From a virus, in the UHGV virus genome UHGV-0039337: 64,000 nt of DNA. One strand, given 5' to 3'. Shown piece after piece: positions 3,439 through 64,000 of the stretch (the first letter of the stretch is position 1; every line of letters begins with the position of its first letter). The notes under the pieces are model-generated. The model ran no database searches, had not been told where the DNA came from, and worked only from the letters and a program-made list of their open reading frames with translations. The position numbers and the translations under genes were made by a program.

Positions 3439-5139
3439 GTGATAAATATTAAAATAATAGAGCGTAAAGCTGATATAAATAAGGTAAATGAATTATCAAA
3501 TAAATATAATATATCAAAAGATATAGTTAGTTTTCTATTAGGGCGTAATGTTCCTGATAATATAATTCCATTACTTGTAGCTAAAAATGAGATAGATTTA
3601 TTACCATATGATTCATTGACTAATGTAAAAGAAGCAGCAAGTATTATTGCTAAACATATAGAGAATGATTCCAATATATTTATATACGGAGATTATGACG
3701 CAGATGGAGTAAGTGCAACTTATATCATGTATCAAGCTTTAGTGGAACTAATAGAAGCTAACCTACAATACAATAGTAGCGTATATTATCATTTACCTAA
3801 TAGAAGTGAAGGATATGGACTTAATATAGATTGGTGTAAAGCTATTCCTACTAATAACTCATTAGTTATAACAGTTGATAATGGAATAACAAAAAGAGAA
3901 GAAGTTGAATATTTAAAAACTAACAATATAGAAGTGTTAATAACTGATCATCATAAACCACAAAAAGGTATGATACCAGACTGTACAATAGTAGATGCTC
4001 ATCTATATGATACAGATAATATAAATTCTTGTGGATTATGTGGCGCTGCAGTAGCATTTAAAATTATAGCTCAATTATATAAAAACTATGGATACGACTA
4101 TTCTTATATAAAAAAATATGTAGCACATGTAGGTATAGCTACTATAACAGATGTAATGCCTTTTACAGAAGAGAATGTAATATTTATTAGTAATGCTTTA
4201 AAATATATAAATGATTATCCTTATAGTAATGAAGAATACGCTCCAGTAACAGAATCTATATATTATTATGCTGAATCAAATAAAGGTAGTAAAGTTACTC
4301 CAAAAGACATAGCTTTTGGATTTGGTCCTCAAATAAATAGTTGTGGTAGAATGGGAGATATTCAAGTAGCTATGGATTTTATGTTAGCTACAGATGAAGA
4401 AGAACTATCAAATGTATTTAAAACAATGTGTCGACTTAATGACGACAGGAAAAATAAAACTAGCTTAAATATGGTTACTATACAACCTCCAAAGCTAACT
4501 GATTTAGCATTAATAATAAAACTTAATAATATAGAAGGTATAGCAGGATCTATAGCAAGTAATTTGTGCGAACAATACAATATGCCAGTAATAGTATTTA
4601 ATAACGAAGATGAAATATTATCCGGTAGTGCAAGATGTCCTGAATGTTATGATATGCAATGGTTATTGAATAATACAGATCATGTACTAACATTTGGTGG
4701 ACATACTAGTGCCGCAGGATTAAGCATAAAAGCTAAAGACTTTAAAATATTTAAAGACTCTTTTAATAAAGCAGTATCTAAAGCTCCCGTATCCGTATCA
4801 ATAGATGATACAGTATATGTAGATAAGATATTAACATCGTCTGATTTAAATAAATATACTATAACTCAATATGATAGCGTATTATTCTTTAATGAATTTA
4901 CTAGACCTATATATGCTTTAGAAAATATATACATAAAAGGCTATCATTTATCTAAAAATAATCCTAACAATATATGCTTTCATATTAAAACGAAAACTAA
5001 AGAAGTTAAGGTATGGTGTTGGGGTTACAAAGATAAATATAAAGCATTAGGTGAACCAAGTTTAGTAAATATAATAGGTTCTCTTGAAATATTTAACGGT
5101 ATGTTTGTAATAAATATATTAGATATAGAAGCGGTTTAA
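3439..5139 (+). CDS. RecJ-like DHH/DHHA1 phosphoesterase (single-strand DNA exonuclease)
   Basis: GTG start with a GGGAG RBS. DHH motifs are present: IYGDYDADGVSAT (motif I/II) and LITDHHKP (motif III). The length is RecJ-like. Confidence 0.7.
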   Translation: MINIKIIERKADINKVNELSNKYNISKDIVSFLLGRNVPDNIIPLLVAKNEIDLLPYDSLTNVKEAASIIAKHIENDSNIFIYGDYDADGVSATYIMYQALVELIEANLQYNSSVYYHLPNRSEGYGLNIDWCKAIPTNNSLVITVDNGITKREEVEYLKTNNIEVLITDHHKPQKGMIPDCTIVDAHLYDTDNINSCGLCGAAVAFKIIAQLYKNYGYDYSYIKKYVAHVGIATITDVMPFTEENVIFISNALKYINDYPYSNEEYAPVTESIYYYAESNKGSKVTPKDIAFGFGPQINSCGRMGDIQVAMDFMLATDEEELSNVFKTMCRLNDDRKNKTSLNMVTIQPPKLTDLALIIKLNNIEGIAGSIASNLCEQYNMPVIVFNNEDEILSGSARCPECYDMQWLLNNTDHVLTFGGHTSAAGLSIKAKDFKIFKDSFNKAVSKAPVSVSIDDTVYVDKILTSSDLNKYTITQYDSVLFFNEFTRPIYALENIYIKGYHLSKNNPNNICFHIKTKTKEVKVWCWGYKDKYKALGEPSLVNIIGSLEIFNGMFVINILDIEAV

Positions 5140-22420: not shown

Positions 22421-25400
22421 TTACGCTCCTATACTATTTATTATTATTTTATTATCATCTGTAAACTTTCCTTTAAAGTTTATAGTTTTGTCTTTTTTTA
22501 AATTACTTTTATATTTATCTAGATTGAATAATAAAGCTTCATAATTACCTTCTTTAGTATCTAATGATATAAAAGCATATCTCTTTCCTGATTTAGCTTT
22601 ACGTTTAGTCACTTTTGTTATAATAGCTTGGCCACTTACATAAATATCATTATATTTAAGGTCTTCCAGATTACAACACTTATTATGAATATAATTAGCT
22701 TGACATAAAATTAATTCTATCTCATCTTCTGATGCATATAGTTCCAGGTTAGTATCTTTATTAATGAATATAGAGTATTTAGGTGGATCTGGATGTTTTT
22801 TCTTGGCTGAAAGATAATATAATTCTTCATATAATTCTATAACATTAGAGCCAAATGCTCCTATTGCTATCATGCTATTTAATGCTTTTGTATTACATAT
22901 ACTTTTATTTACATGTTTATATATATGAGCCACTAAAGAATCATCTTTATTTTCTTTTTCTTTATTTAGCCAATAAGTAGCAGCATTATAAGCGTTCTCA
23001 GATACATTTGCAAGGCAGCAGAAGCCGAGTCTAATCCCCTCTGTTTCTACTGTACATTTGTATTTTGATTTAGTTATATCAAGAGGTAGAAATTTAATAC
23101 CTACTTTCATACATTCATTTTGTATTGTTTTAAATTTAGCTTTACGTTCATCAGTTTTACCTGATTTATTATTATACATACAAGTTAAAGTTGCCGCATA
23201 AAATTCTTTAGGATAGTAAATTTTATAATATGCTGTTTCATAACAAGTTAAAGCATAAGCTACAGCATGAGATTTGTTGAAACTATATTTCCCTGAATCT
23301 AATATTAATTGAAATATTTTTTCAAATATATCATCAGTCATAATATTTTTACTTAACTCTTTTAATTCTGCTTTATATGAAGCTATTTTATCAAATTTTT
23401 TTTTGCTAGATGATTTCATAAGCGAATATGCTTCATGCAATGGCAATCCCATATTTGCACAACATTGCATTAATTCTTCTTGATAAATCATAACTCCATT
23501 AGTTGTCTTAGTAGCTTTATCATAAGCTGGATGTATATATTCTATATTTTCTTTGCCTTCTTGTATTTTCATATAATGTTCATCGAGCCCTGATTGAATA
23601 CAAGGGCCACGGACAAGAGCAAGACAATCAGCAAGTTGTTCTATATTACGTGGGTTTAATCTTCTCATGCGTTGTTTGTAAGTATTACTGCCTATTTGAA
23701 ATAGCCCTGTAGTATTACGAGAACAGATTAAATCCCATACTTTTTTATCATTTAATGGATCAAATTCTATATCTATTTTATGACCTGTAAGTTTTTCACA
23801 TTCGCTTAATATACATAAAGTATTTAATCCTAAATAATCATATTTTACTAAGGCCTGACTTTCTGCATCATGTAAATCAAGGGCTGTAGCATTTAATTCT
23901 TTTTTGTCTTGTCTAACCATTGGTGCTACATCAGATACTTTAGATTTAACTATTAATGTACCTGCTGCATGTATAGAAGTATGACATGGTAAACCTTCAA
24001 GCTTCATAGCCATTTCAAATACTTCTGGATATATTTCTTGCCACTCTCTAAGTTCTGGTACTATCTCTAATGATTCTTCTATTGATAAATCGCTTTGCTT
24101 TTCTGTGCCATCTTCAGATTCTTCATATACACATTGAGGTATTAGTTTAGCTATTTTATCTTCGGTCTTTAAGTCTATATTATATAATTTGCATACGCTT
24201 CTTATTGATGATCTTGCTTTACGTATACTAAAAGTAGATACAGCTGCACAATGATCAAGTCCATAAGTATCTAAAGTATACTTAAACATAATATCTCTAT
24301 AGTCACTAGGCACATCTATATCTATGTCAGGGTATTGTGCCCTTGCGGTGTATACTTAAAAATCTATCAAACATAAGATTATATTTAATAGAATCTACTT
24401 TGGTTATTTGAAGTAAATAAGCAACAATAGATCCGCATACGCTGCCTCTTCCAGGGCCCATTTTTGCTCCAATCTTATTCATATATTGTATTAGATCTCT
24501 TGTTATTAAAAAATAAGAACTAAATCCTAAATCATCTATAACTTTAAGCTCTTCATACATTCTATCAACGTATTGTGCTGGATTTTTAATTTTATATTGT
24601 ATTTGATCTAATCTTTCTAAACATAATTTTTCTATATAAGTTTTAGGAATATAACCTGTAGGACATTCAAATTCTGGAAGGTTTAACTCTTCTTGGTTGA
24701 AATCATATGATTCAACTTTATTAGATAAGTCCATAGTATTGTCTAATGCTTGATTAATTATATCTGCATTATACAATTCACTATTAAAAGAATTAAAGAT
24801 TTCATCTCTAGACATCATATAATATATTTTATCTGCATATATACTTTCATCTTCATTTTCTGGTGCTTTTAAATTACGCGTAATTCTTATATGAAAATCA
24901 TGAGTTTTCCAATCTTCCTTATTTATATAATGCACATCATTAGTAGCAATGAGTTTAATGTTTTTCTCTTCTGCTATATTAATCATTGCATTATTAACTT
25001 TAATTTGTTCATCAAAATTACCTGGTTGAATTTCTAAATATAAGTCATCTCTGAACATATTATATAATTCTTCAATATGATTAATAGCTTGTTCATTTTC
25101 ATTGTTTATAATAAGTTGAGGGGCATATCCTCCTACACAAGCTGTAGTACAGATAAGCCCCTCAGTATAGTCTTTTATATGTTCTAAATCTATACGTGGT
25201 TTATAATAATAATATTCAACAGATGCATCTGATACTATTTTCAATAAGTTAGATATGCCTGTTTTATTTTTAGCTATTAATACCATATGATATAACTTTT
25301 TATGTTCACTGTCTTTAATAGTACAGTCTTCACATAAATATATTTCACAGCCTATAAGTGGTTTAATATTATTGTTTATACACTCATAATAGAATCCATA

Positions 25401-25577
25401 CATATTACTTAAAGATCCGTGATCTGTTATAGCTATGGATTTCATATTAAGTTTTTTAGCTTTAGCAATTATATCTTTATTTGTAGCGATGGAATCTCCT
25501 ACCGATCCTTTTGTAGTATGCAAATGAGTTATGCAATAATTATTATAATAAGAAGTCATCGTTATCATCTTCTTCAT
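22421..25577 (-). CDS. dnaE: DNA polymerase III alpha DnaE-type (copy 2); the reading frame needs a +1 shift at CCC-TGA-C (plus 24326-24332)
   Basis: The N-terminal ORF (25577-24327) has PHP motif HLHTTKGSVGDS and GPGRGSVCGSIVAYLL, ending ...HRKGTIP-stop. The +1 frame continues directly as DIDIDVPSDYRD..., matching copy 1 (NPDIDSD), with FNKSHAVAYALTCYETAYYKIYYP downstream. The merged length of about 1046 aa is normal for DnaE. Confidence 0.65.
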
Positions 25578-35753: not shown

Positions 35754-36936
35754 CGAATTTGTTATCGTGAGGCTTTTTATCCTTCACTTCTACGGCTATT
35801 AACCGTAGTCCAGCATATTTTTTCGTGTGATTACTAACTGTGAACACGGTGCGGCCTCGTGGGTTCATTATACTCCTTACTTATAAGGTAAGGGATCAGA
35901 ACCTATGCGTTGCGCCTGGTCGATATTACTATCGTCGCTCACATTACTGCTCGCTAGCTTTTCAGCACCTTCGGTCTCGAGTAGGCTGTCTTTTGACTTT
36001 ACGCCATCCTCGCTTAATTCCGCACTAATACTCTCAGGATTTCTCACAGTCTTATCCTGAGACGGCAATATTCTAAATACTTATTATATTTTCTATCTAA
36101 ATAAACGGTAGCATCTTTATATATATAATCAAATATTTTTTTTAACGAATCAATTTTAAAAATATTTAACGAAGGAACTCTATTTTTATTATTATATATA
36201 TGAATATCATCTTCTTTTAATGTAGAAGTATTTATGATGGCGTTTTTTATATCTTCTAGTACTTGGAAATTATAAGAAACAATTGACCATTTGCAATTTC
36301 CTTTTGTTTTCTTTTTGCCAGATAAACTAAAAGATCCATCTCCATCAAAAACGCCTCTTATAAAATGATGCATAAATTCTTCTGGGATGTTTGGAATTTT
36401 CCATCCATAAGTTTTATTGTGCATTACACCGAGTTCTCTTAATCTATTTGCCATATATGGATCTTGAATAGTAAGTCTATAATATGCATATCCAGATACT
36501 ATCCTAGTGCTGATTTTATGTTCAGCTTCCATATCTGTTTTAAATTTTTCTATGTGTTCCTTATCTTTTATGCATACTTCTAAACTATTCTTTTTTGATA
36601 AATGACCATCAGCAAATATAAAGCCTAACCAATATGCACTTTTTTCATTCCATTCATCAAAGAATTTATTATTAAAATATTTTTTATTATGTTGTGCATG
36701 TTTGGTATTTATTCCTTTTTCGTTAAATTTTTTAGCTAAATAATTTCTATCTCTTTCTAATAATTCAGCTACTTTTGTTAAACTTAATCCATTATTATAT
36801 AATTTGATTGCTATGTTTAATTCTTCTTCAGATATTGATTTTCTAGGCATAGTTAAATTTCTCCTTTATAAAAATATATTTAACTATTTATTACCTAGAC
36901 ATGCCGTTTATTTATTTAAGCATTTAAAAATTATCT
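35754..36936 (-). mobile_element. Group I-type intron (1183 nt) in the UvrD-like helicase gene, with a LAGLIDADG homing endonuclease
   Basis: Splits the Walker A motif (TATAGAG | KTRV). Exon 1 ends in U and the intron ends in G. The GC-rich 3' core (35754-36043) is homologous to the core of the AAA-gene intron. It shares a 3' terminal motif AGGAUAAAAAGCCU..AUAACAAA..G with the dut and AAA introns, and has an S-like AAUAUGCUGGAC. Confidence 0.6.
36044..36850 (-). CDS. Intron-encoded double-motif LAGLIDADG homing endonuclease
   Basis: SAYWLGFIFADGHL and HHFIRGVFDGDGSF. It is a paralog of the ORF at 61078-61941. Confidence 0.7.
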   Translation of the reverse strand: MPRKSISEEELNIAIKLYNNGLSLTKVAELLERDRNYLAKKFNEKGINTKHAQHNKKYFNNKFFDEWNEKSAYWLGFIFADGHLSKKNSLEVCIKDKEHIEKFKTDMEAEHKISTRIVSGYAYYRLTIQDPYMANRLRELGVMHNKTYGWKIPNIPEEFMHHFIRGVFDGDGSFSLSGKKKTKGNCKWSIVSYNFQVLEDIKNAIINTSTLKEDDIHIYNNKNRVPSLNIFKIDSLKKIFDYIYKDATVYLDRKYNKYLEYCRLRIRL

Positions 36937-49702: not shown

Positions 49703-51595
49703 TTAATTACATTTACTGTATCCACAATTTACACAACTAATACATCCTTCAGTTTTTAATAGTGTTTTTTCTTCACATTCAGGGCATGTCATGTAATAAT
49801 CATTTGTTTCTTTAGCTGTTTCTGTTTTTTTAGTTTCTAATGGTTTAGACTTTTCTTTTTGTTGTATTGTTTTAATTTCTATTTCAGTATCATCATCAAA
49901 ATCTATAAATTCTTCCATGAATTGATTATGAGCATTTACTAATGCATAAGCTACTGCTGATGCACATGATGAACCTTTAGAAGTTGTTTTGTCTTTATAT
50001 TTAGAAATACTATATGATGGACATACTAAAGCTGATTCTAATTGATCTGCTATTTCTTCTACTGGTGCTCCTTTTCTTGCACATAGACTAGTAAGTCTAG
50101 ATACTGCATTTAATAAAGATAAACAACCACCTTTGCTTCCTTTATCTAAGAACACTTCACGTAATTCTCCAGTTTCAGGACAGAAATAGAAAGTACAATG
50201 CAAACTTCCACATCCAGTTTTAAGTTTTCTCTTAATACCGATTACGGAATCATCAACTAATATAGTATCTCCAAATTTAAGCATAGATTTAGCTTTTTCT
50301 ATTGGAGTTAGATTCGACTCTTTTTCTTCTTTTTCATTACTTACTGTAAGAATACCTGCTCTTTCACAGTTATTTCTATATATAGTTAATCCTTTAACTC
50401 CTTTTTCGGCACCATATAAATAAATTTCTTTTATTTGTTGTGGCGTAACATCTTCTGATAAATTGACTGTAGATGAAATCGATGCGTCTATATATTTTTG
50501 AATAGTAGCTTGTACATCTACTCTATTAAATGGATCTAATTGGTGTGTTGATATAAAGTATTCAGGTAAATCATTAGTATTACCTGTAACTTTTCTATAG
50601 TCTTCAACTATTTTAGCTTCTACTGTATAGTAAACATCTTCATCATGTAAGCTTTCAGTTTTTCTAGTATAACTATAAGCAAAATTAGGTTCTACTCCAT
50701 ATGAAGTATTAAGTAATCCAGCTACAGTTCCAGTAGGTGCTATTGTAGTTAATTGGCTATTAAATAGTCCATTTTGTAGCGCAGCTTTTAGTGTATTTGT
50801 TTCGTAATAATTTAGATTTCCAACTAAATTTTGTATTATATCTGATTTAAATGTTTTGTCTGCATCATAATTTTTAAATGGTGTGTTGCCTTCTATTTTT
50901 GCATAATCAGCACTAGCTATTATACTATTATATAATAAGGCAGTACCTATTGTTTCTATCACTAATAATGATTCTGACGAACCATAAGTTATTCCTAATT
51001 TTATTAAAGTATCTGCCAATCCCATTATTCCAAGTCCTATTTGTCTTAAATCGCCTACGGTTTTACGTTGTTCTTCTAATGGATGTAAAGGCATACCTTC
51101 TATTAATACATCATTTAATGCAAATATAGCTTTATGAATTACTTTTTTAAATTCATCGTAATCAAATCTAGCGTTTGGTGTAAATGGATCAATTATAAAC
51201 TCACTTAAATTAATAGCACCAAGCAAACATGAACCTCCTGCAGGAAGAGGTTCTTCAGCACATGGATTCACACCTACATAATTAAAATCATCATAATATT
51301 GCATTAAGTTATAATTTTGTATTTTATCCCAATAAAGAATTCCTGGTTCTGCCATTCTCCAATTGTTTAATGCTAGTTTATCCATGATTTTATTAGCGTC
51401 GATTAATTTTACTATAGTATTTCCATCTTCTAATTTAAATGTACAAGGATAACTCTCTTTATTTTTAACAGCTTCAATAAAATTACTATTTATCATAACT
51501 GAAATATTTGCTTTAGTTATGGCATTTAAATCTGTTTTTATATCTATAAATTCTTCAATGTCTGGGTGGCTTACATCCATGGATATCATGAGTGC
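49703..51595 (-). CDS. Ribonucleotide reductase large subunit (class I/II fold, probably NrdJ-like), exon 2
   Basis: Begins ALMISMDVSHPDIEEFI. It carries the catalytic NPCAEEPLPAGGSCLLGAINLS and a C-terminal CPECEEK...CISCVNCGYSKC zinc ribbon. No small-subunit gene is present in the window. Confidence 0.75.
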   Translation of the reverse strand, partial: ALMISMDVSHPDIEEFIDIKTDLNAITKANISVMINSNFIEAVKNKESYPCTFKLEDGNTIVKLIDANKIMDKLALNNWRMAEPGILYWDKIQNYNLMQYYDDFNYVGVNPCAEEPLPAGGSCLLGAINLSEFIIDPFTPNARFDYDEFKKVIHKAIFALNDVLIEGMPLHPLEEQRKTVGDLRQIGLGIMGLADTLIKLGITYGSSESLLVIETIGTALLYNSIIASADYAKIEGNTPFKNYDADKTFKSDIIQNLVGNLNYYETNTLKAALQNGLFNSQLTTIAPTGTVAGLLNTSYGVEPNFAYSYTRKTESLHDEDVYYTVEAKIVEDYRKVTGNTNDLPEYFISTHQLDPFNRVDVQATIQKYIDASISSTVNLSEDVTPQQIKEIYLYGAEKGVKGLTIYRNNCERAGILTVSNEKEEKESNLTPIEKAKSMLKFGDTILVDDSVIGIKRKLKTGCGSLHCTFYFCPETGELREVFLDKGSKGGCLSLLNAVSRLTSLCARKGAPVEEIADQLESALVCPSYSISKYKDKTTSKGSSCASAVAYALVNAHNQFMEEFIDFDDDTEIEIKTIQQKEKSKPLETKKTETAKETNDYYMTCPECEEKTLLKTEGCISCVNCGYSKCN

Positions 51596-52537
51596 CGATT
51601 GTACCGTTTCTTTCGAAATACTTTAACATCGTTTTATACGATCGGTCTAGACTATATCTTCAACTCATATTCTTTTACCGAATATGAGTTGCTTGGTACT
51701 TCCGGTCAGGATTTTCACCTAATTACCCGTACTCTACTCGGTTATTCTCTTAGATATTTCTTCTAAGATATCCTTTCGATAGTCGTTTGACTTTATTTTA
51801 TATTATATAGCTTCATAAGTTATTATATAGTTTTTTAATTTTCCTCTACTTGGCATAGGTTTTTTACCCTCTGCATATAATCCTAAAACCGTTATATTTC
51901 CCGCTGAATATCCAAAGTATCTTGCTAATTCTGATAGTGATACGAATTCTTTAATAAAGTTTCCTTCTCTATCATAAAGGTATACATGCTTATTGCAAGT
52001 ACAACAATCATCACCGTATGCTTGCTGTGTGTTTTCGGATATTGTGCCCCATTTTAGGTTTGTATAATGATTATTTAATTTATTGTTATCTAAATGTAAT
52101 ACTATAGGGTAATCATTTGGATTTTCTAAATAAGTCATAGCGACTAATCTATGCACCCTAAAATGTCTTCTTATTCCATCTTTACATACTAACAATAAAT
52201 CTTCATAACCATCTTTCATTATTCTTGTCGATAAAAACCTTTTTAATATTTTTGAATATATTTGCCCATCTTCGGTTATACTATAATAATCTTGTTTTAT
52301 ATTGAAGCAATCCAAATCTTTTATAAAAATCATCTCCTAATAATTTTTATAAGAAATGGCATAATATAAAATCTTAGCACAGGATTAGCATACCTATATG
52401 GCTTTAGCCTCCCCTGTTAGCACACTCATTAATAACCATTTCCTGTTATTACTAATATACGCTGAGTGTACACCCTAGTTTTTAGGTTCACCAAGTTTTT
52501 CATTATATATCACTATATAAAGGCGGCCGATATTTTA
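51596..52537 (-). mobile_element. Group I intron (942 nt) in the ribonucleotide reductase gene, with an HNH_3-type homing endonuclease
   Basis: Splits ...IGQKGRRG | ALMISMDVSHPDI (conserved RRGA.M...HPDI). Exon 1 ends in U and the intron ends in G. The core has R (GUCAAACGACUAUCG) and S (AAGAUAUAGUCUAGACC) elements. Confidence 0.7.
51803..52333 (-). CDS. Intron-encoded HNH_3-family homing endonuclease
   Basis: VLHLDNNKLNNHYTNLKWGTISEN is an HNH_3 motif. Confidence 0.6.
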   Translation of the reverse strand: MIFIKDLDCFNIKQDYYSITEDGQIYSKILKRFLSTRIMKDGYEDLLLVCKDGIRRHFRVHRLVAMTYLENPNDYPIVLHLDNNKLNNHYTNLKWGTISENTQQAYGDDCCTCNKHVYLYDREGNFIKEFVSLSELARYFGYSAGNITVLGLYAEGKKPMPSRGKLKNYIITYEAI

Positions 52538-60356: not shown

Positions 60357-60755
60357 CTATAATATCGTATAATCTTCTTCAGACATTATATATTGTCTTT
60401 TTTCTGTATTCATTACTTTGCTATTCATACACATAGAAACTATTTTATTAGCTTCTTCTGCGTCTTCAATTGTTATTTTAATTAGTGTTCTATGTTCTGG
60501 ATTCATAGTTGAATCCCATAAACCTTCTGCTGATAATTCACCTAATCCTTTTAAATAAGTTATATTTAATTTTTTATTAGGATATTGTTGTTTAATAGAA
60601 TTTAATTCAGCATCATCTATAGCATATAACGTAGTATTTTTATCTACTATAATCTTATATAATGGTGGGCATGATAAATATAAATAACCTTCTTCTATTA
60701 TAGGTCTAAAATATCTATAAAATAATGTTATATACAAAGTAGCTATATGATAACC
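60357..60755 (-). CDS. Type II topoisomerase subunit B (GyrB/ParE-like), exon 3 (C-terminal)
   Basis: Begins GYHIATLYITLFYRYF and carries GYLYLSCPPLYKI (the GyrB PPLYK motif). Confidence 0.7.
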   Translation of the reverse strand, partial: GYHIATLYITLFYRYFRPIIEEGYLYLSCPPLYKIIVDKNTTLYAIDDAELNSIKQQYPNKKLNITYLKGLGELSAEGLWDSTMNPEHRTLIKITIEDAEEANKIVSMCMNSKVMNTEKRQYIMSEEDYTIL

Positions 60756-62013
60756 CGATTACACCCTCGGTTTCCCGATATTTATCAGGGGTCTAGACTA
60801 TACCTTCGCCATTTCAGGCGCACTGAACGTAGTCGTTGGACTCCTCCTGTTCGGAGTCGGCTGCTGATTTTCCATTAATTCACCCTTAGCACGTATTTAA
60901 TAATACGCTTTTGTCTCAGCTTAGGTAATCCTCAATACTTTTTTCTGCTTTCGCAACATTCATATAAGTTTGTTTCATCTTATATTGTAGTGATTAAGGC
61001 TTTAGGAATTCCCAGCAAGCGGTCAGTGTAATAATCCTATAGGTTATTATTCCCTATAAGACGACTATATTTATAAATTAATTATATTTTAAATAGAGAT
61101 TTAAATAACGTTCAAATTTGCGTTCCATATATATAGTACAATCTAAATATAACCAACTCATTATTTGATATACTTGATTATCACCACATAATCTTAAACT
61201 TTGAACGTTTCCGTCTCCGTTTTTATGTCTTTTTTGTAATTTTACATTCTCTTTATTTAAAATTGTTTTAAGCGTTTCTAAAAATTCTGTAGTACCTAAT
61301 ATACTAATATCATAAGTATGATATTTTTTATCTCCTGATATTGACAGAGATCCATCTCCATCAAAATATCCTCTAATAAAATGTCTTTGTAATTCTTTTG
61401 GTACTATATCCTCTGAAGGAAATAAACAATGATTGGTTTTATCAAGGCTAAAACCTTTATTAACTAAATCTTGATACATCTTTTTGCTAGTTATAACCAT
61501 TTTTGACTCTCTTGTAATACAATCAAAACTTTTATTGTAATGTTCATAATCTCTTATTGGATACGTAGAGTCTATATCTTTTTTAAATTTTTCTATCATA
61601 TTACGATCTTTTGTGGCTAACGTTAATCCTATTTCATTCCCTCTATTTGTTATATATCCATCAGCCATTAAAAAACCCAACCAATAAGCTTTATGTTCTG
61701 TATCAATAACTTCAAAGTAATTATCATTTACTTTATTTCTTCTTAAATCATCAGGACTTTTCTTTTGATATAGTCCTGCTTTAATTAAAACTGGATAAAT
61801 AGTTTGAGGTTTTCTATCTTTTAACGATTCTTTATTCTCACAAATCCATTTTACGCTATGTCCCTCTTTATATTTATTGCATATCCATTTTTTATCTTCT
61901 TCAGAAAATGATTTTCTTATTCTTTTTGTCAATATATTCACCCCAATATTTAGTTTCTTTATCTAAATATTACGGTGAACGTAGACGCTTATAATAATTA
62001 TTTATAAATCTTA
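60756..62013 (-). mobile_element. Group I intron (1258 nt) in gyrB-like, with a LAGLIDADG homing endonuclease
   Basis: Splits DADVD | GYHIATL (GyrB Toprim DADVDG.HI.tLLLTFF). Exon ends in U and the intron ends in G. The core has R (GUCCAACGACUAC) and S (AGGUAUAGUCUAGACC) elements. Confidence 0.7.
61078..61941 (-). CDS. Intron-encoded double-motif LAGLIDADG homing endonuclease
   Basis: KAYWLGFLMADGYI and RHFIRGYFDGDGSL. Confidence 0.7.
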   Translation of the reverse strand: MNILTKRIRKSFSEEDKKWICNKYKEGHSVKWICENKESLKDRKPQTIYPVLIKAGLYQKKSPDDLRRNKVNDNYFEVIDTEHKAYWLGFLMADGYITNRGNEIGLTLATKDRNMIEKFKKDIDSTYPIRDYEHYNKSFDCITRESKMVITSKKMYQDLVNKGFSLDKTNHCLFPSEDIVPKELQRHFIRGYFDGDGSLSISGDKKYHTYDISILGTTEFLETLKTILNKENVKLQKRHKNGDGNVQSLRLCGDNQVYQIMSWLYLDCTIYMERKFERYLNLYLKYN

Positions 62014-63202
62014 ATCAACATCGGCATCGCTCATTATTATTATCTTATGATATCGTAAGTTATCTATATTAAAATCTTCACCTATACCACACTCTAAACT
62101 ATATAATATATCTTTTAATTTATCAGATGATAATACTTTATCTAAAGTCATTTCTTCTACATTTGGTATTTTCCCGAATACAGGTAATATTGCTTGAGTA
62201 TTCTTGTCACATGCGGTAGTTGCTGTAGAAGCTGCACTATCACCTTCAACTAAAAATATTTCGCAAGCTTCAGGATCTTTACTAGCACATTTTACTAATT
62301 TTTCAACTTTTTTATTAGCGAAATTTTTATTCTTTCTTGCAGCTTCTTTTGCTTTATAGGCGGCTTCTCTGATCTTGTTTGATTCAATAACTTTATTAAG
62401 TATATTATCTTTATCATTCGGTAGTTTATCAAATTGATCTTCACAAAACTCCTTTACTTCACTATACAATATGCTTGCTATTACAGGCATATTTAAATAA
62501 TCTTTTCCTTGTCCTATATAGTTAGGATCTGGTACCTTGACACTAACTACTGCTATTATACCTTCACGTGTGTCTTCTGCTGTTAATTGTGTTTTAGATT
62601 TAGGATATTCATTTTCAAAGCAATCTTTAACAGCTGTAGCTATACCACGTTTAAATCCTGTTATATTAGAAGATTTACCATCGGTATTTATAACATTATT
62701 AGTAAACGCTATTATATTATCACTATAAGCCTGAGTCCAAGCAAAAGCTACAGATATTTCACACGATTTATCATTATCCATTTCAACTGATTTAGTTAAG
62801 AACCAAGGATCATGAATACTTTCTTTGTTAGCTGTAAGTTCTTCAACATATGCTTTAACACCCTCTGGATAATTATAGATTTCATGTATGTTATAGTCCC
62901 CATATTCTATATCTACTTTAATAGTAAGTTCAGGATTAAGATAGCATATTTGTTTCATTCTGCTATTAATAGCTGGTATATTAAAATCATCTTTATCAGC
63001 CCATATTTCAGGATCTGGTTCACATTGTATAAGAGTCATAGTAAAGTCTTCACGTGATATTTCTTCTACTTCGTGTAATTTATGAGTCACTAATCCTTGT
63101 TCAAATTCCATATCATATACTTTACCACCAGTATATATTTCAACATGGAACCATTTAGATAAGAAGTTTATACATGATGCTCCTACGCCATTTACAATAG
63201 TT
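62014..63202 (-). CDS. GyrB/ParE-like subunit B, exon 2 (transducer and Toprim)
   Basis: The in-frame extension upstream of the called Met gives TIVNGVGASCINFLSKWFHVEIYTGGKVYD (GyrB HGVGvSvVNALS region). Further on are FLVEGDSAAST and IMSDADVD (Toprim). Confidence 0.65.
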
Positions 63203-63868
63203 CACATAGGTTCGCTATTCCTATGCCGCACTATTACGTGCAGCCTCTAGTTTTCACTAGGGATCGGACTATATCATCACCCTTTAATAAGGGGTTCTCC
63301 ATTTCCATTTAATAGGTAATTAAGAGCCTTATTACGGCTCACCTAACCGCTTGGCTGTACTCTACTCACTTCTGTTACTATCAGAATCGCTTTCGATAGT
63401 CTCTGAACTTTCATTTATTCCATTTAAATAACCAAATTCTTGTTCTTTTTCTCTTCTAAAATCAATACACATCTGTTTAGCTTGTTCATAACCATATTTT
63501 TTACACGATCTTGATATTCTACATTTTTTATGTTCATTATCTTTTATTTCTGCAATCCAAGAATCTCTACTTTTATCATATCTTACACCTTTTATTCCGC
63601 TTGTGTTACATTCTCTTAATGATGTATTTTTTAAATTTTCGTGTCTTGTTGTTATTCTTAAATTGTTTTTACGATTATCCAGACCGTTATGATTTAAATG
63701 ATCTACAACAATGTCGTAACCTTCTACGTCTAATATTAATCTGTGCAAATATATTGGTTATATAAAATAAATGTTTAGCTGCTGATTGCCATATGCTTAT
63801 GCACTTAGGTTTCCAGCAATTAAAAGAATTTTTCGATACACATTACTGCGTAAAGGGACTAAATAGTT
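63203..63868 (-). mobile_element. Group I intron (about 666 nt) in the gyrB-like ATPase-domain region, with an HNH-AP2 homing endonuclease
   Basis: The core has R (GUUCAGAGACUAUCG) and S (GAUAUAGUCCGAUCC) elements. It separates ...FEEGVKSAGL from (T)IVNGVGAS. The exact junction is ambiguous because AACUAUU occurs at both boundaries. Confidence 0.55.
63362..63748 (-). CDS. Intron-encoded HNH endonuclease with an AP2-like DNA-binding domain
   Basis: VDHLNHNGLDNRKNNLRITTRHEN is the HNH motif, and GIKGVRYDKSRDSWIAEI is AP2-like. Confidence 0.6.
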   Translation of the reverse strand: MHRLILDVEGYDIVVDHLNHNGLDNRKNNLRITTRHENLKNTSLRECNTSGIKGVRYDKSRDSWIAEIKDNEHKKCRISRSCKKYGYEQAKQMCIDFRREKEQEFGYLNGINESSETIESDSDSNRSE

Positions 63869-64000
63869 AATCCAGCTGATTTAACACCTTCTTCAAATTT
63901 AGTACCAGCTTTTAATCTAGACATACATAATTCAGCTATGGTACATCCTGGTATTTCATCTGATTCTTCTGTAGGTAACGCACCTGCGCTATCTGTTACT
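63869..64000 (-). CDS. GyrB/ParE-like subunit B, exon 1 (partial, continues beyond the window)
   Basis: The reading frame gives ...EIPGCTIAELCMSRLKAGTKFEEGVKSAGL, matching the GyrB GHKL ATPase region (S.aEvimt.LHAGGKFd...YKvSGGLHGVG). Confidence 0.5.

What the first reader, a model, noticed from the sequence alone, without database searches (positions are those of the whole stretch)
60756..62013. gyrB-like Toprim domain is split by a group I intron carrying a LAGLIDADG endonuclease
...IIIMSDADVD | GYHIATLYITLFYRYF rebuilds the GyrB DADVDG.HI.tLLLTFFyR signature. The 1258-nt intervening sequence has a U before the 5' splice site, an omega-G, a LAGLIDADG ORF that is a paralog of the one in the helicase intron, and a core with R (GUCCAACGACUAC) and S (AGGUAUAGUCUAGACC) elements.
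Basis: partly seen in the sequence, partly recalled or inferred. Interest (0 to 1): 0.55.

Follow-up and report, generated by a model that had tools for sequence, protein, structure and literature searches.

The report
Mobile self-splicing intron in phage gyrB
The gyrase B gene of an uncultivated ~270-kb sewage phage is interrupted, exactly at its metal-binding DxDxD motif, by a 1258-nt group I intron carrying a LAGLIDADG homing endonuclease; it is a well-supported but ordinary example of the mobile introns that crowd large phage genomes.

Summary
The finding holds at the stated coordinates (60756-62013, minus strand). Removing that stretch joins ...IIIMSDADVD to GYHIATL..., which aligns without a gap to solved GyrB structures. 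A related metagenomic contig (L072, ~85% nt identity) carries an uninterrupted 648-aa gyrB whose alignment to the window breaks exactly at 62014|60755.

The last 322 nt match Rfam's group I model (35.2 bits, E 1.5e-7, below the gathering score of 50). They belong to a family of phage introns in which P4, P5, P6, P7 (the R-S pairing), P8 and P9 are kept by compensatory changes: 89.9% of cells are paired against 30-46% when partners are slid.

The ORF is a two-motif LAGLIDADG enzyme (pLDDT 91.5, both catalytic Asp present, dN/dS 0.125). It sits in the P1 loop, which a 10-bp covarying stem closes.

The intron is 100% identical in phage lineages whose upstream exon is only ~82% identical. Relatives carry zero, one or two gyrB introns, as expected of a homing element.

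Introns in gyrB of jumbo phages are already annotated (MarsHill-like phages), so this is a new member of a known kind. Splicing and cleavage were not tested. The most unusual point is that three different introns and one intein use sites within a few codons of this motif.

The parts
62014..63194 (-). gyrB middle exon (GyrB transducer domain plus the first two thirds of Toprim). It ends ...GAT GCC GAT GTT GAT (DADVD).
   Evidence: Pfam DNA_gyraseB and Toprim 1-68/96. Aligns to intron-less L072 981-2158.
60756..62013 (-). Group I intron, 1258 nt. It starts UAA (stop for the upstream exon) and ends ...UAAUCG (omega-G at 60756).
   Evidence: Absent to the exact base from L072. RF00028 hit on the core. 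Present at 100% identity in 9 other contigs.
62012..62017 (-). P1 5' strand: exon UGAU | intron UA. U62014 is the U of the U.G wobble at the 5' splice site.
   Evidence: Pairs with UAGUCG at 61067-61062. The partner's position aligns with the guide sequences of relatives that have short P1 loops.
62000..62009 (-). P1 extension, 5' strand AUUUAUAAAU.
   Evidence: 10-bp duplex with 61078-61069. The pairing is kept with different sequences in L082 and L085.
61937..61979 (-). Hairpin of 16 pairs with one mismatch that buries the ORF's Shine-Dalgarno-like GGGGUG (61944-61939).
   Evidence: Present in the MFE fold of 62030-61915, which has z -4.84. Any regulatory role is inferred.
61078..61941 (-). 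LAGLIDADG homing endonuclease ORF (287 aa from GTG 61941; likelier start TTG 61932, 6 nt after GGGGUG). N-terminal three-helix domain plus two LAGLIDADG motifs (WLGFLMADG, IRGYFDGDG).
   Evidence: PF14528 at 49.5 bits. Invariant D94, G95, D194, G195 and G197, with Asp at 196. AlphaFold pLDDT 91.5. Foldseek top hits are the bI3 maturase, I-Tsp061I, I-AniI and I-OnuI. dN/dS 0.125 against the L082 ortholog.
61069..61078 (-). P1 extension, 3' strand AUUUAUAAAU (overlaps the last base of the ORF stop codon).
61062..61067 (-). Internal guide sequence UAGUCG (P1 3' strand; G61065 pairs with the splice-site U).
   Evidence: The same AGUCGUC occurs in the orthologs L082 and L085 and in L029.
61036..61060 (-). 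P2 hairpin CUUAUAGG-(9 nt)-CCUAUAGG.
   Evidence: MFE fold. Relatives have an equivalent hairpin.
60862..61028 (-). P3 5' strand (61028-61020), P4 (61017-61012 / 60867-60862) and P5 (61008-61005 / 60873-60870), with a branched P5 extension. The extension holds P5a 60999-60993/60936-60930, P5b 60985-60962, the GAAA-capped P5c 60956-60945 and an extra arm at 60925-60884.
   Evidence: RF00028 alignment, RNAalifold and MFE fold. Compensatory changes in P4 and P5; those in P5a read by eye.
60840..60861 (-). P6/P6a.
60829..60841 (-). R element GUCCAACGACUAC. The P7 5' strand is A-[C bulge]-GACUA (60836, 60834-60830), and the G-C pair after the bulge is the presumed guanosine-binding site.
60821..60829 (-). 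P3 3' strand CGUUCAGUG.
60807..60820 (-). P8 hairpin CGCC-UGAAAU-GGCG.
60790..60805 (-). S element AGGUAUAGUCUAGACC. The P7 3' strand is UAGUCU (60800-60795).
60756..60791 (-). P9 (CCC/GGG) enclosing the GAAA-capped P9a (UCGG/CCGA), a candidate P9.0, and the terminal omega-G at 60756.
   Evidence: P9 and P9a 100% paired, many pair types.
60357..60755 (-). gyrB 3' exon: GYHIATLYITLFYRYF..., the rest of Toprim plus the GyrB C-terminal domain. The stop lies 14 nt before gyrA (60342-57910).
   Evidence: Pfam DNA_gyraseB_C. Aligns to L072 2159-2607.

Best explanation
This is a mobile group I intron inserted between the codons for Asp and Gly of the Toprim motif D-A-D-V-D|G of a phage gyrB gene.

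Splicing model (inferred from anatomy, not observed). The primary transcript folds so that a 6-bp P1 (exon UGAU + intron UA with guide UAGUCG, containing the U.G wobble) is held together by a 10-bp P1 extension across a ~920-nt loop that carries the endonuclease gene. The compact core downstream of that loop (P2-P9, 322 nt) forms the canonical P3-P8 / P4-P6 domains with the P7 pseudoknot. An exogenous guanosine bound at the G-C pair of P7 attacks after U62014, then the freed exon attacks after omega-G 60756. This restores an intact Toprim domain and a full-length GyrB, which works with the adjacent GyrA.

Homing model (inferred from population data and homology). The intron ORF encodes a monomeric two-motif LAGLIDADG endonuclease. 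In a mixed infection it would cut the uninterrupted site (...GATGCCGATGTTGAT|GGGTATCATATAGC...) of an intron-less relative. Repair from the intron-bearing genome would then copy the intron and adjacent exon sequence. A hairpin that buries the ORF's ribosome-binding site may limit endonuclease translation from the unspliced gyrB transcript (speculative).
For: Boundaries: the spliced frame is open and aligns gap-free to GyrB structures. Intron-less allele L072/P0018 breaks exactly at 62014|60755.

Ribozyme: RF00028 35.2 bits, E 1.5e-7, covering P3-P9. MFE fold of the core reproduces the helices, z -4.2. RNAalifold on 6 related introns gives 25 of 50 pairs with compensatory changes. On 17 introns, 89.9% of cells are paired against 75.6% in shuffles (0/500) and 30-46% when slid; 20 of 31 pairs change on both sides; P7 is 100% paired with 3 covarying pairs. 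The ortholog in L082 at the same site has compensatory changes in P3, P5a, P5b, P6, P7 and P8 (read by eye).

P1: guide sequence immediately 5' of P2, as in relatives. 10-bp extension that covaries in L082 and L085.

Endonuclease: Pfam, conserved motifs and catalytic Asp, confident model with LAGLIDADG fold matches, dN/dS 0.125, and 3962 homologs including the 'mobile intron protein' of Bacillus phage 0305phi8-36.

Mobility: gyrB alleles with 0, 1 or 2 introns exist. The intron is 100% identical where exon sequence more than 500 nt upstream is ~70% identical, with a near-identical ~500-nt tract next to the intron.
Against: No RNA data: splicing and endonuclease activity are inferred. The Rfam score is below the curated gathering score (35.2 < 50), and the model found nothing when the whole window or a 1.5-kb stretch was searched. 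The 6-bp P1 core alone would arise by chance in ~12% of shuffles of the 16 nt before P2. P10 is weak (-0.7 kcal/mol). P3 is poorly paired in the MAFFT alignment (31%), which I attribute to a 1-nt register shift; the hmmalign register gives 13-18 canonical cells out of 18-19 at four P3 pairs and 15 of 25 at the fifth. Most family members were fetched with an R..S pattern, so P7 covariation rests on the few members found independently (L082, L085, L037b, L023b). The mosaic identity pattern could reflect ordinary recombination rather than homing-associated co-conversion.
Confidence: 0.92

Rival explanations
1. Split gene without splicing. A free-standing endonuclease cassette has cut gyrB in two, and the two parts are translated separately and assemble, as in T4 topoisomerase genes 39 and 60 (recalled knowledge).
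For: Gene callers report separate 366/510-aa and 126-aa products. The upstream part ends with a stop codon right at the junction.
Against: The downstream part has no start codon or ribosome-binding site at GGT TAT CAT; the first possible start (TTG 60737) would lose conserved residues. 322 nt of the insert are a covarying group I core. The boundaries have the U / omega-G signature.
Confidence: 0.03
2. A decayed intron. The ribozyme and/or endonuclease no longer work, and gyrB is a pseudogene or needs host factors.
For: Weak P1 core and weak P10. Rfam score below gathering.
Against: Helices are maintained by compensatory changes between orthologs at 80% endonuclease identity. ORF dN/dS is 0.125. 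The intron-bearing allele occurs on at least 23 contigs from many samples, with intact exons and an adjacent intact gyrA.
Confidence: 0.04
3. The ORF product acts mainly as a maturase (splicing cofactor) rather than, or in addition to, a DNA endonuclease.
For: The best structural matches include the bI3 maturase and the bifunctional I-AniI. An ORF in the P1 loop would have to be accommodated during folding.
Against: Both catalytic Asp residues are retained. The presence/absence polymorphism and the identical intron in diverged backgrounds indicate ongoing DNA-level mobility.
Confidence: 0.15
4. Intein: the insert is removed at the protein level.
For: A distant phage GyrB (L017) does carry an intein a few codons away.
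Against: Here a stop codon follows the exon immediately, the ORF is free-standing in the intron, no Hint domain was found, and an RNA core is present.
Confidence: 0.005

Closest known systems
Introns annotated in DNA gyrase B of jumbo phages (Staphylococcus phages MarsHill, Madawaska and Machias; compared there with Bacillus phage AR9)
   Same: Large low-GC phages whose gyrB, polymerase, terminase and other core genes are interrupted by introns, with intron content that varies between close relatives (bioRxiv 10.1101/2020.12.14.422802).
   Different: Those introns were inferred from protein alignments only; insertion sites and ribozyme structures are not given in the text I could read. The present phage is only distantly related (best GyrB identity to any INPHARED record <50%) and has DnaE-type polymerases. 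I did not locate the AR9 or MarsHill gyrB sites.
Bacillus phage 0305phi8-36 DNA polymerase III alpha intron with its 'mobile intron protein'
   Same: The endonuclease is 43% identical. The ribozyme falls in the same nhmmer family (L057 903-671, E 2.4e-13).
   Different: Different host gene and target site. The ORF position in that intron was not examined.
Twort-like Staphylococcus phage introns (terL of phage PSU6; Twort orf142 introns, subgroup IA2 by recalled knowledge)
   Same: The 47 nt from S through P9 to omega-G are 94% identical to the 3' ends of the PSU6 terL introns.
   Different: There is no room for P7.1/P7.2 here, because P7 is followed directly by P3'. A large branched P5 extension is present. 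The rest of the core is not similar at megablast level.
Phage T4 td / I-TevI paradigm of intron homing (recalled knowledge)
   Same: A self-splicing intron in a nucleotide/DNA-metabolism gene at a conserved active-site sequence, with a free-standing endonuclease ORF whose ribosome-binding site is occluded by RNA structure.
   Different: LAGLIDADG rather than GIY-YIG enzyme. ORF in the P1 loop rather than P6. Different intron subgroup.
GyrB inteins
   Same: They target the same conserved Toprim region. L017 has one at IIIM|TDSDVDG, and it contains LAGLIDADG-like motifs.
   Different: Protein-level splicing with an in-frame insertion; unrelated excision mechanism.

Membership tests
Group I intron (Rfam RF00028) | Score at or above the curated gathering threshold (50 bits) | tested here: not met
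   35.2 bits, E 1.5e-7, when 60740-61090 is searched alone. No hit at gathering or in larger stretches. The shortfall is plausibly due to P1 lying 940 nt away and a ~120-nt P5 insertion.
Group I intron | Conserved core helices P3-P8 and P4-P6 supported by covariation | tested here: met
   89.9% paired against 30-46% when slid; 20 of 31 pairs with compensatory changes.
Group I intron | P7 pseudoknot (R-S pairing) with a G-C pair next to a bulge as the guanosine site | tested here: met
   A[C]GACUA / UAGUCU. P7 is 100% paired in 17 sequences with 3 covarying pairs. L082 has GAUCA/UGAUC and L085 has GCGUA/UACGC. Guanosine binding itself was not tested.
Group I intron | U.G wobble at the 5' splice site within P1; terminal omega-G | tested here: met
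   The exon ends in U62014, paired with G61065 of the guide UAGUCG. The intron ends in G60756. The P1 core alone is not statistically significant (12% of shuffles), but its 10-bp extension covaries.
Group I intron | GTP-dependent self-splicing | not testable with these tools
   Needs in vitro transcription and splicing, or RNA-seq.
Group I intron subgroup IA2 (T4- and Twort-type phage introns) | P7.1/P7.2 hairpins between P7 and P3' | tested here: not met
   P7 (60834-60830) abuts P3' (60829-60821). Subgroup not assigned, because subtype models were not available.
LAGLIDADG homing endonuclease (single-chain, two-motif) | Two LAGLIDADG motifs, each with a terminal acidic residue; Pfam match above cutoff | tested here: met
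   PF14528 at 49.5 bits (cutoff 22.5), 2 stretches. WLGFLMAD94G and IRGYFDGD196G.
LAGLIDADG homing endonuclease | Alpha-beta-beta-alpha-beta-beta-alpha pseudo-dimeric fold | tested here: met
   Model pLDDT 91.5. Foldseek probability 1.00 to the bI3 maturase, I-Tsp061I, I-AniI and I-OnuI.
LAGLIDADG homing endonuclease | Site-specific cleavage of the intron-less allele | not testable with these tools
   The candidate substrate is known: L072 around position 2158|2159.
Mobile (homing) intron | Precise presence/absence polymorphism among close relatives, with the intron more conserved than its flanks | tested here: met
   L072 lacks it to the exact base. It is 100% identical in 8 of 9 contigs (99.9% over the 5' leader and ORF in L078), including those whose upstream exon is ~82% identical. 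The tract next to the intron is near-identical for ~500 nt.

The most novel reading that the evidence does not exclude
The six bases encoding the end of the Toprim DxDxD motif are a multi-lineage landing pad, and one intron lineage has moved between successive GAU codons.

The window's intron sits after the third GAU (DADVD|G). The L085 intron has the same guide sequence (UAGUCGUC), a near-identical P9 and an endonuclease 49% identical, and it sits after the second GAU (DAD|VDG), 6 nt upstream. Both P1 helices use GAU|UA.

This would fit site-shifting by reverse splicing guided by the short guide sequence, or slippage of the repair junction, followed by re-adaptation of the endonuclease. Homing alone would not explain it. 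An unrelated IA-like ORF-less intron (L016, 4 nt upstream) and an intein (L017) use the same motif.
Probability: 0.15. Interest if true: 0.5.

Novelty: new member of a known kind. Interest (0 to 1): 0.3.

Why it matters
For annotation, gene callers split this gyrB into three fragments plus two 'orphan' endonuclease genes, and the coordinates given here restore a single ~650-aa GyrB. For biology, it is a clean natural data set: alleles with 0, 1 or 2 introns, an identical intron in diverged backgrounds, and orthologous introns at 80% and ~50% endonuclease identity. That set could be used to study homing and co-conversion in uncultivated jumbo phages. It also offers a LAGLIDADG enzyme with a known 20-30-bp candidate target in a universally conserved gyrase motif. 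It does not change what is known about group I introns. Dense intron loads in large phages, including in gyrB, are already documented (Sci Adv 2026, PMC12880540).

Tried and rejected
- Rfam at gathering threshold on the whole window found nothing. With E-value thresholds on 1.5 kb or 64 kb it also found nothing relevant. The hit appeared only when the 351-nt core was searched alone.
- Megablast of the region against 50,697 phage records gave only two short matches, so no isolate-level relative was identified.
- Searching for the guide sequence in the first 100 nt of the intron found nothing convincing. Longer complementary stretches inside the ORF (e.g. 11 bp at 61464) were rejected as chance matches in AT-rich sequence, because relatives place the guide directly 5' of P2.
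- P10 pairing is weak.
- The sigma-70 promoter and terminator scan was not above the shuffled expectation (28 found against 22.2 +/- 5.3), so no statement is made on a separate promoter for the ORF.
- A full-length covariance model was not built, because a ~315-position model was expected to exceed the calibration limit. nhmmer/hmmalign plus count of structure pairs were used instead.
- The AR9 region I fetched contained gyrA with two introns but not gyrB, so the sites of previously annotated gyrB introns were not compared.
- The helicase insertion gave no RF00028 match.
- The intein and split-gene readings were considered and rejected (see rivals).

Full report
**Where and what.** The finding lies on the minus strand of a low-GC window (26-34% GC in 2-kb windows). 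The window encodes a phage-like replication module: DnaE-type polymerases, a DHH phosphoesterase, SNF2 and UvrD helicases, a ligase, RecA, ribonucleotide reductase and gyrB-gyrA. Exact-sequence look-ups place its proteins on 270-278-kb contigs, and those I could trace to a sample came from sewage and other metagenome assemblies. No phage isolate record matches at megablast level. The best GyrB identity to any INPHARED record is below 50%.

**The observation.**
- The gyrB reading frame ends at 62014 with ...ATG AGC GAT GCC GAT GTT GAT, followed at once by TAA. It resumes at 60755 with GGT TAT CAT ATA GCT.
- Joining the exons, after also removing a second insertion at 63869-63195, gives an open frame of 569 codons to the window edge.
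- That product aligns to E. coli, S. pneumoniae and other solved GyrB/ParE chains at E 1e-93 to 2e-96. There is no gap at the junction (IIIMSDADVDGYHIATLYITLFYRYF against [26 protein letters not shown]).
- Pfam Toprim improves from a truncated 34.8-bit match to 54.2 bits on splicing.
- The boundaries cannot be slid without losing the conserved Asp-Gly. As drawn, the exon ends in U and the insert ends in G.

**Independent proof of the boundaries.** The 90%-identity cluster of the upstream exon product contains a 648-aa protein, P0018. This protein is an uninterrupted GyrB. Its contig, L072, aligns to the window as follows:

| L072 | window |
|---|---|
| 981-2158 | 63194-62014 |
| 2159-2607 | 60755-60305 |

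Identity is ~85%. The natural intron-less allele therefore breaks at exactly the predicted bases. It also lacks the upstream insertion.

**The ribozyme.**
- Rfam found nothing at gathering threshold, nor in large search spaces. Searching only 60740-61090 gave RF00028 at 35.2 bits, E 1.5e-7.
- That alignment places P3, P4, P5 (with a ~120-nt insertion), P6, R, P3', P8, S and P9 in the canonical order.
- The thermodynamic fold of the 322-nt core reproduces these helices without constraints (-85.6 kcal/mol, z -4.2).
- A pattern scan of IMG/VR for R..S-like motifs returned 54 loci. Several of them carry cores homologous to this one over P4 and the P5 extension or nearly the whole length.
- RNAalifold on six such introns independently predicted P3, P4, P5, P5b, P5c, P6, P8 and P9. 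Compensatory changes occur in 25 of 50 pairs.
- I then wrote a structure by hand, with P7 as a pseudoknot, and counted it on 17 introns:

| Measure | Observed | Control |
|---|---|---|
| Cells paired | 89.9% | 75.6 +/- 1.1% in shuffles (0/500); 30-46% when partners are slid |
| Pairs changed on both sides | 20 of 31 | |
| P4, P5, P7, P9, P9a paired | 96-100% | |

- P3 scores badly in that MAFFT alignment. In the hmmalign register, four of its pairs have 13-18 canonical cells out of 18-19 and the fifth has 15 of 25. I attribute the MAFFT result to a 1-nt register shift in the window sequence.
P7 is fully paired, with AU to GC and CG to GC exchanges in members that were not selected by the search pattern.
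- P7 sequences in the gyrB introns: window GACUA/UAGUC; orthologous L082 GAUCA/UGAUC; L085 GCGUA/UACGC.

**Architecture: the ORF is in the P1 loop.**
- The whole core lies 3' of the ORF.
- The guide sequence UAGUCG (61067-61062) sits directly 5' of P2. In relatives with short P1 hairpins the guide aligns to the same place.
- It pairs with exon UGAU plus intron UA, giving the U.G wobble. Six base pairs alone would occur in ~12% of shuffles.
- RNAduplex also finds a 10-bp extension: intron +5..+14 AUUUAUAAAU (62009-62000) pairs with AUUUAUAAAU (61078-61069), immediately after the ORF stop.
- The two related gyrB introns keep this stem with different sequences: UUUUAAAAUU/AAUUUUAAAA in L082 and AUUAUGA/UCAUAAU in L085. 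So a 16-bp interrupted stem closes a ~920-nt loop that holds the endonuclease gene.
- P7 is followed directly by P3', leaving no room for the P7.1/P7.2 elements of the IA2 introns of T4 and Twort. I did not assign a subgroup.
- The last 47 nt (S through P9 to omega-G) are nevertheless 94% identical to the 3' ends of the terL introns of the Twort-like Staphylococcus phage PSU6.

**The ORF.**
- It matches LAGLIDADG_3 in two stretches and has 3962 homologs at E <= 1e-5, many on 200-280-kb contigs. They include the 'mobile intron protein' of Bacillus phage 0305phi8-36.
- An alignment of 25 members shows the two motifs WLGFLMADG and IRGYFDGDG, with the acidic residues retained in the window protein.
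- AlphaFold gives pLDDT 91.5. Foldseek matches monomeric LAGLIDADG enzymes and maturases at probability 1.00.
- Residues 1-70 form a small helical domain that carries HTH Pfam hits in some homologs.
- dN/dS against the 80%-identical ortholog is 0.125.
- The paralogy with the ORF at 36044-36850 is real (30.6% identity, E 3e-25).
- A likely start is TTG 61932, six bases after GGGGUG. That Shine-Dalgarno-like sequence is buried in a 16-pair hairpin with one mismatch. A regulatory role is only an inference, by analogy with T4 intron ORFs.

**Mobility.** Contigs carrying the identical endonuclease fall into two classes: both gyrB introns present (L073, L075, L076, L078), or only this one (L074, L077, L079, L080, L081). 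L072 has neither.

| Segment | Identity to the window in the one-intron lineage |
|---|---|
| Intron | 100% |
| Downstream exon and gyrA | 98.5-100% |
| Upstream exon, first ~500 nt from the intron | near-identical (15 mismatches in L074) |
| Upstream exon beyond ~500 nt | ~70% |

An identical element in diverged backgrounds, flanked by a converted tract, is what homing predicts. Ordinary recombination cannot be excluded.

**A hot spot.** Other phage gyrB genes carry other elements at the same motif:
- L082: the orthologous intron at the same D|G site.
- L085: a related intron (endonuclease 49% identical, same guide sequence, same P9) 6 nt upstream, at DAD|VDG.
- L016: an unrelated ORF-less intron 4 nt upstream, at GACGU|C GAU GGA.
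- L017: an intein at IIIM|TDSDVDG.

**Comparison with the literature.** The MarsHill jumbo-phage preprint lists DNA gyrase B among intron-disrupted genes and notes variable intron content among close relatives. AR9 gyrA is annotated as three joined pieces. A 2026 study found on average 18.5 group I introns per genome in gut jumbo phages, about half of those examined being confirmed by metatranscriptome reads. Full-text searches found no description of this particular intron or insertion site.

**Verdict.** The element is a well-formed and, by population evidence, currently mobile group I intron with a LAGLIDADG endonuclease. It is a new member of a known kind. Its minor points of interest are the P1-loop ORF with a covarying closing stem, and the clustering of different introns and an intein within a few codons of the DxDxD-coding sequence. 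Splicing and cleavage remain to be shown experimentally.

Noticed in passing
window 63195-63869 (-): A second group I intron in the same gyrB gene (675 nt, between ...KSAGL and NGVGAS...). It carries an HNH_3 + AP2 ORF (63748-63362). RF00028 matches its two halves (E 5e-9 and 2e-7). It is absent from L072 and from the L074/77/79/80/81 lineage.
   Followed up: partly
window 35754-36936 (-): The UvrD-like helicase is interrupted inside its Walker A motif (ATAGAG|KT, rebuilt by eye) by a 1183-nt insert carrying the LAGLIDADG paralog (36850-36044). The GC-richer 290-nt 3' part gave no RF00028 hit at E <= 1 and no hit to the gyrB-intron family HMM, so its ribozyme class is unverified.
   Followed up: partly
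window 51590-52534 (-): The ribonucleotide reductase large-subunit gene appears split by an insert with an HNH_3 + NUMOD1 ORF (52333-51803). RF00028 gives 25.9 bits, E 2.8e-4, at 51789-51626.
   Followed up: partly
window 22421-25577 (-): A second DnaE-type polymerase is encoded by two adjacent ORFs, 25577-24327 (PHP + pol3_alpha positions 2-99) and 24313-22421 (pol3_alpha 110-260, finger, HHH), separated by only 13 nt. It could be a naturally split gene, a frameshift, or a very short element.
   Followed up: no
L017 320-4417: The GyrB of a 340-kb IMG/VR contig is a single 1365-aa ORF with two inteins. One follows EGDSAGG (C...HN|S). The other sits at IIIM|S...CHN|TDSDVDG, a few codons from the window's intron site.
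   Followed up: partly
L085 2410-3661; L016 ~4246-4596: Two other gyrB introns lie within 6 nt of the window's site. L085 (DAD|VDG) shares the guide sequence, P9 and a 49%-identical endonuclease but has a different central core. L016 (GACGU|C GAU GGA) is an ORF-less intron with extra hairpins after P7.
   Followed up: partly
L029 427-780 (-): A 204-kb IMG/VR phage contig has an ORF-less intron of the same ribozyme family in its DnaE polymerase gene. P4 and the P5 extension are 77.5% identical to the window's, and the AGUCGUC guide region is identical. Its upstream exon ends ...GAUGUUUAU, resembling the gyrB target ...GAUGUUGAU.
   Followed up: partly
L023 / L034 / L066 (IMG/VR contigs): These loci contain more than ten separate matches to the intron-family HMM within ~12 kb, an extreme intron density.
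   Followed up: no
window 62000-62047 (-): In the MFE fold of the 5' leader, the 5' splice site is also enclosed in an alternative hairpin (exon GAUGC with intron GCGUC, plus AU-rich pairs). It would compete with P1.
   Followed up: no
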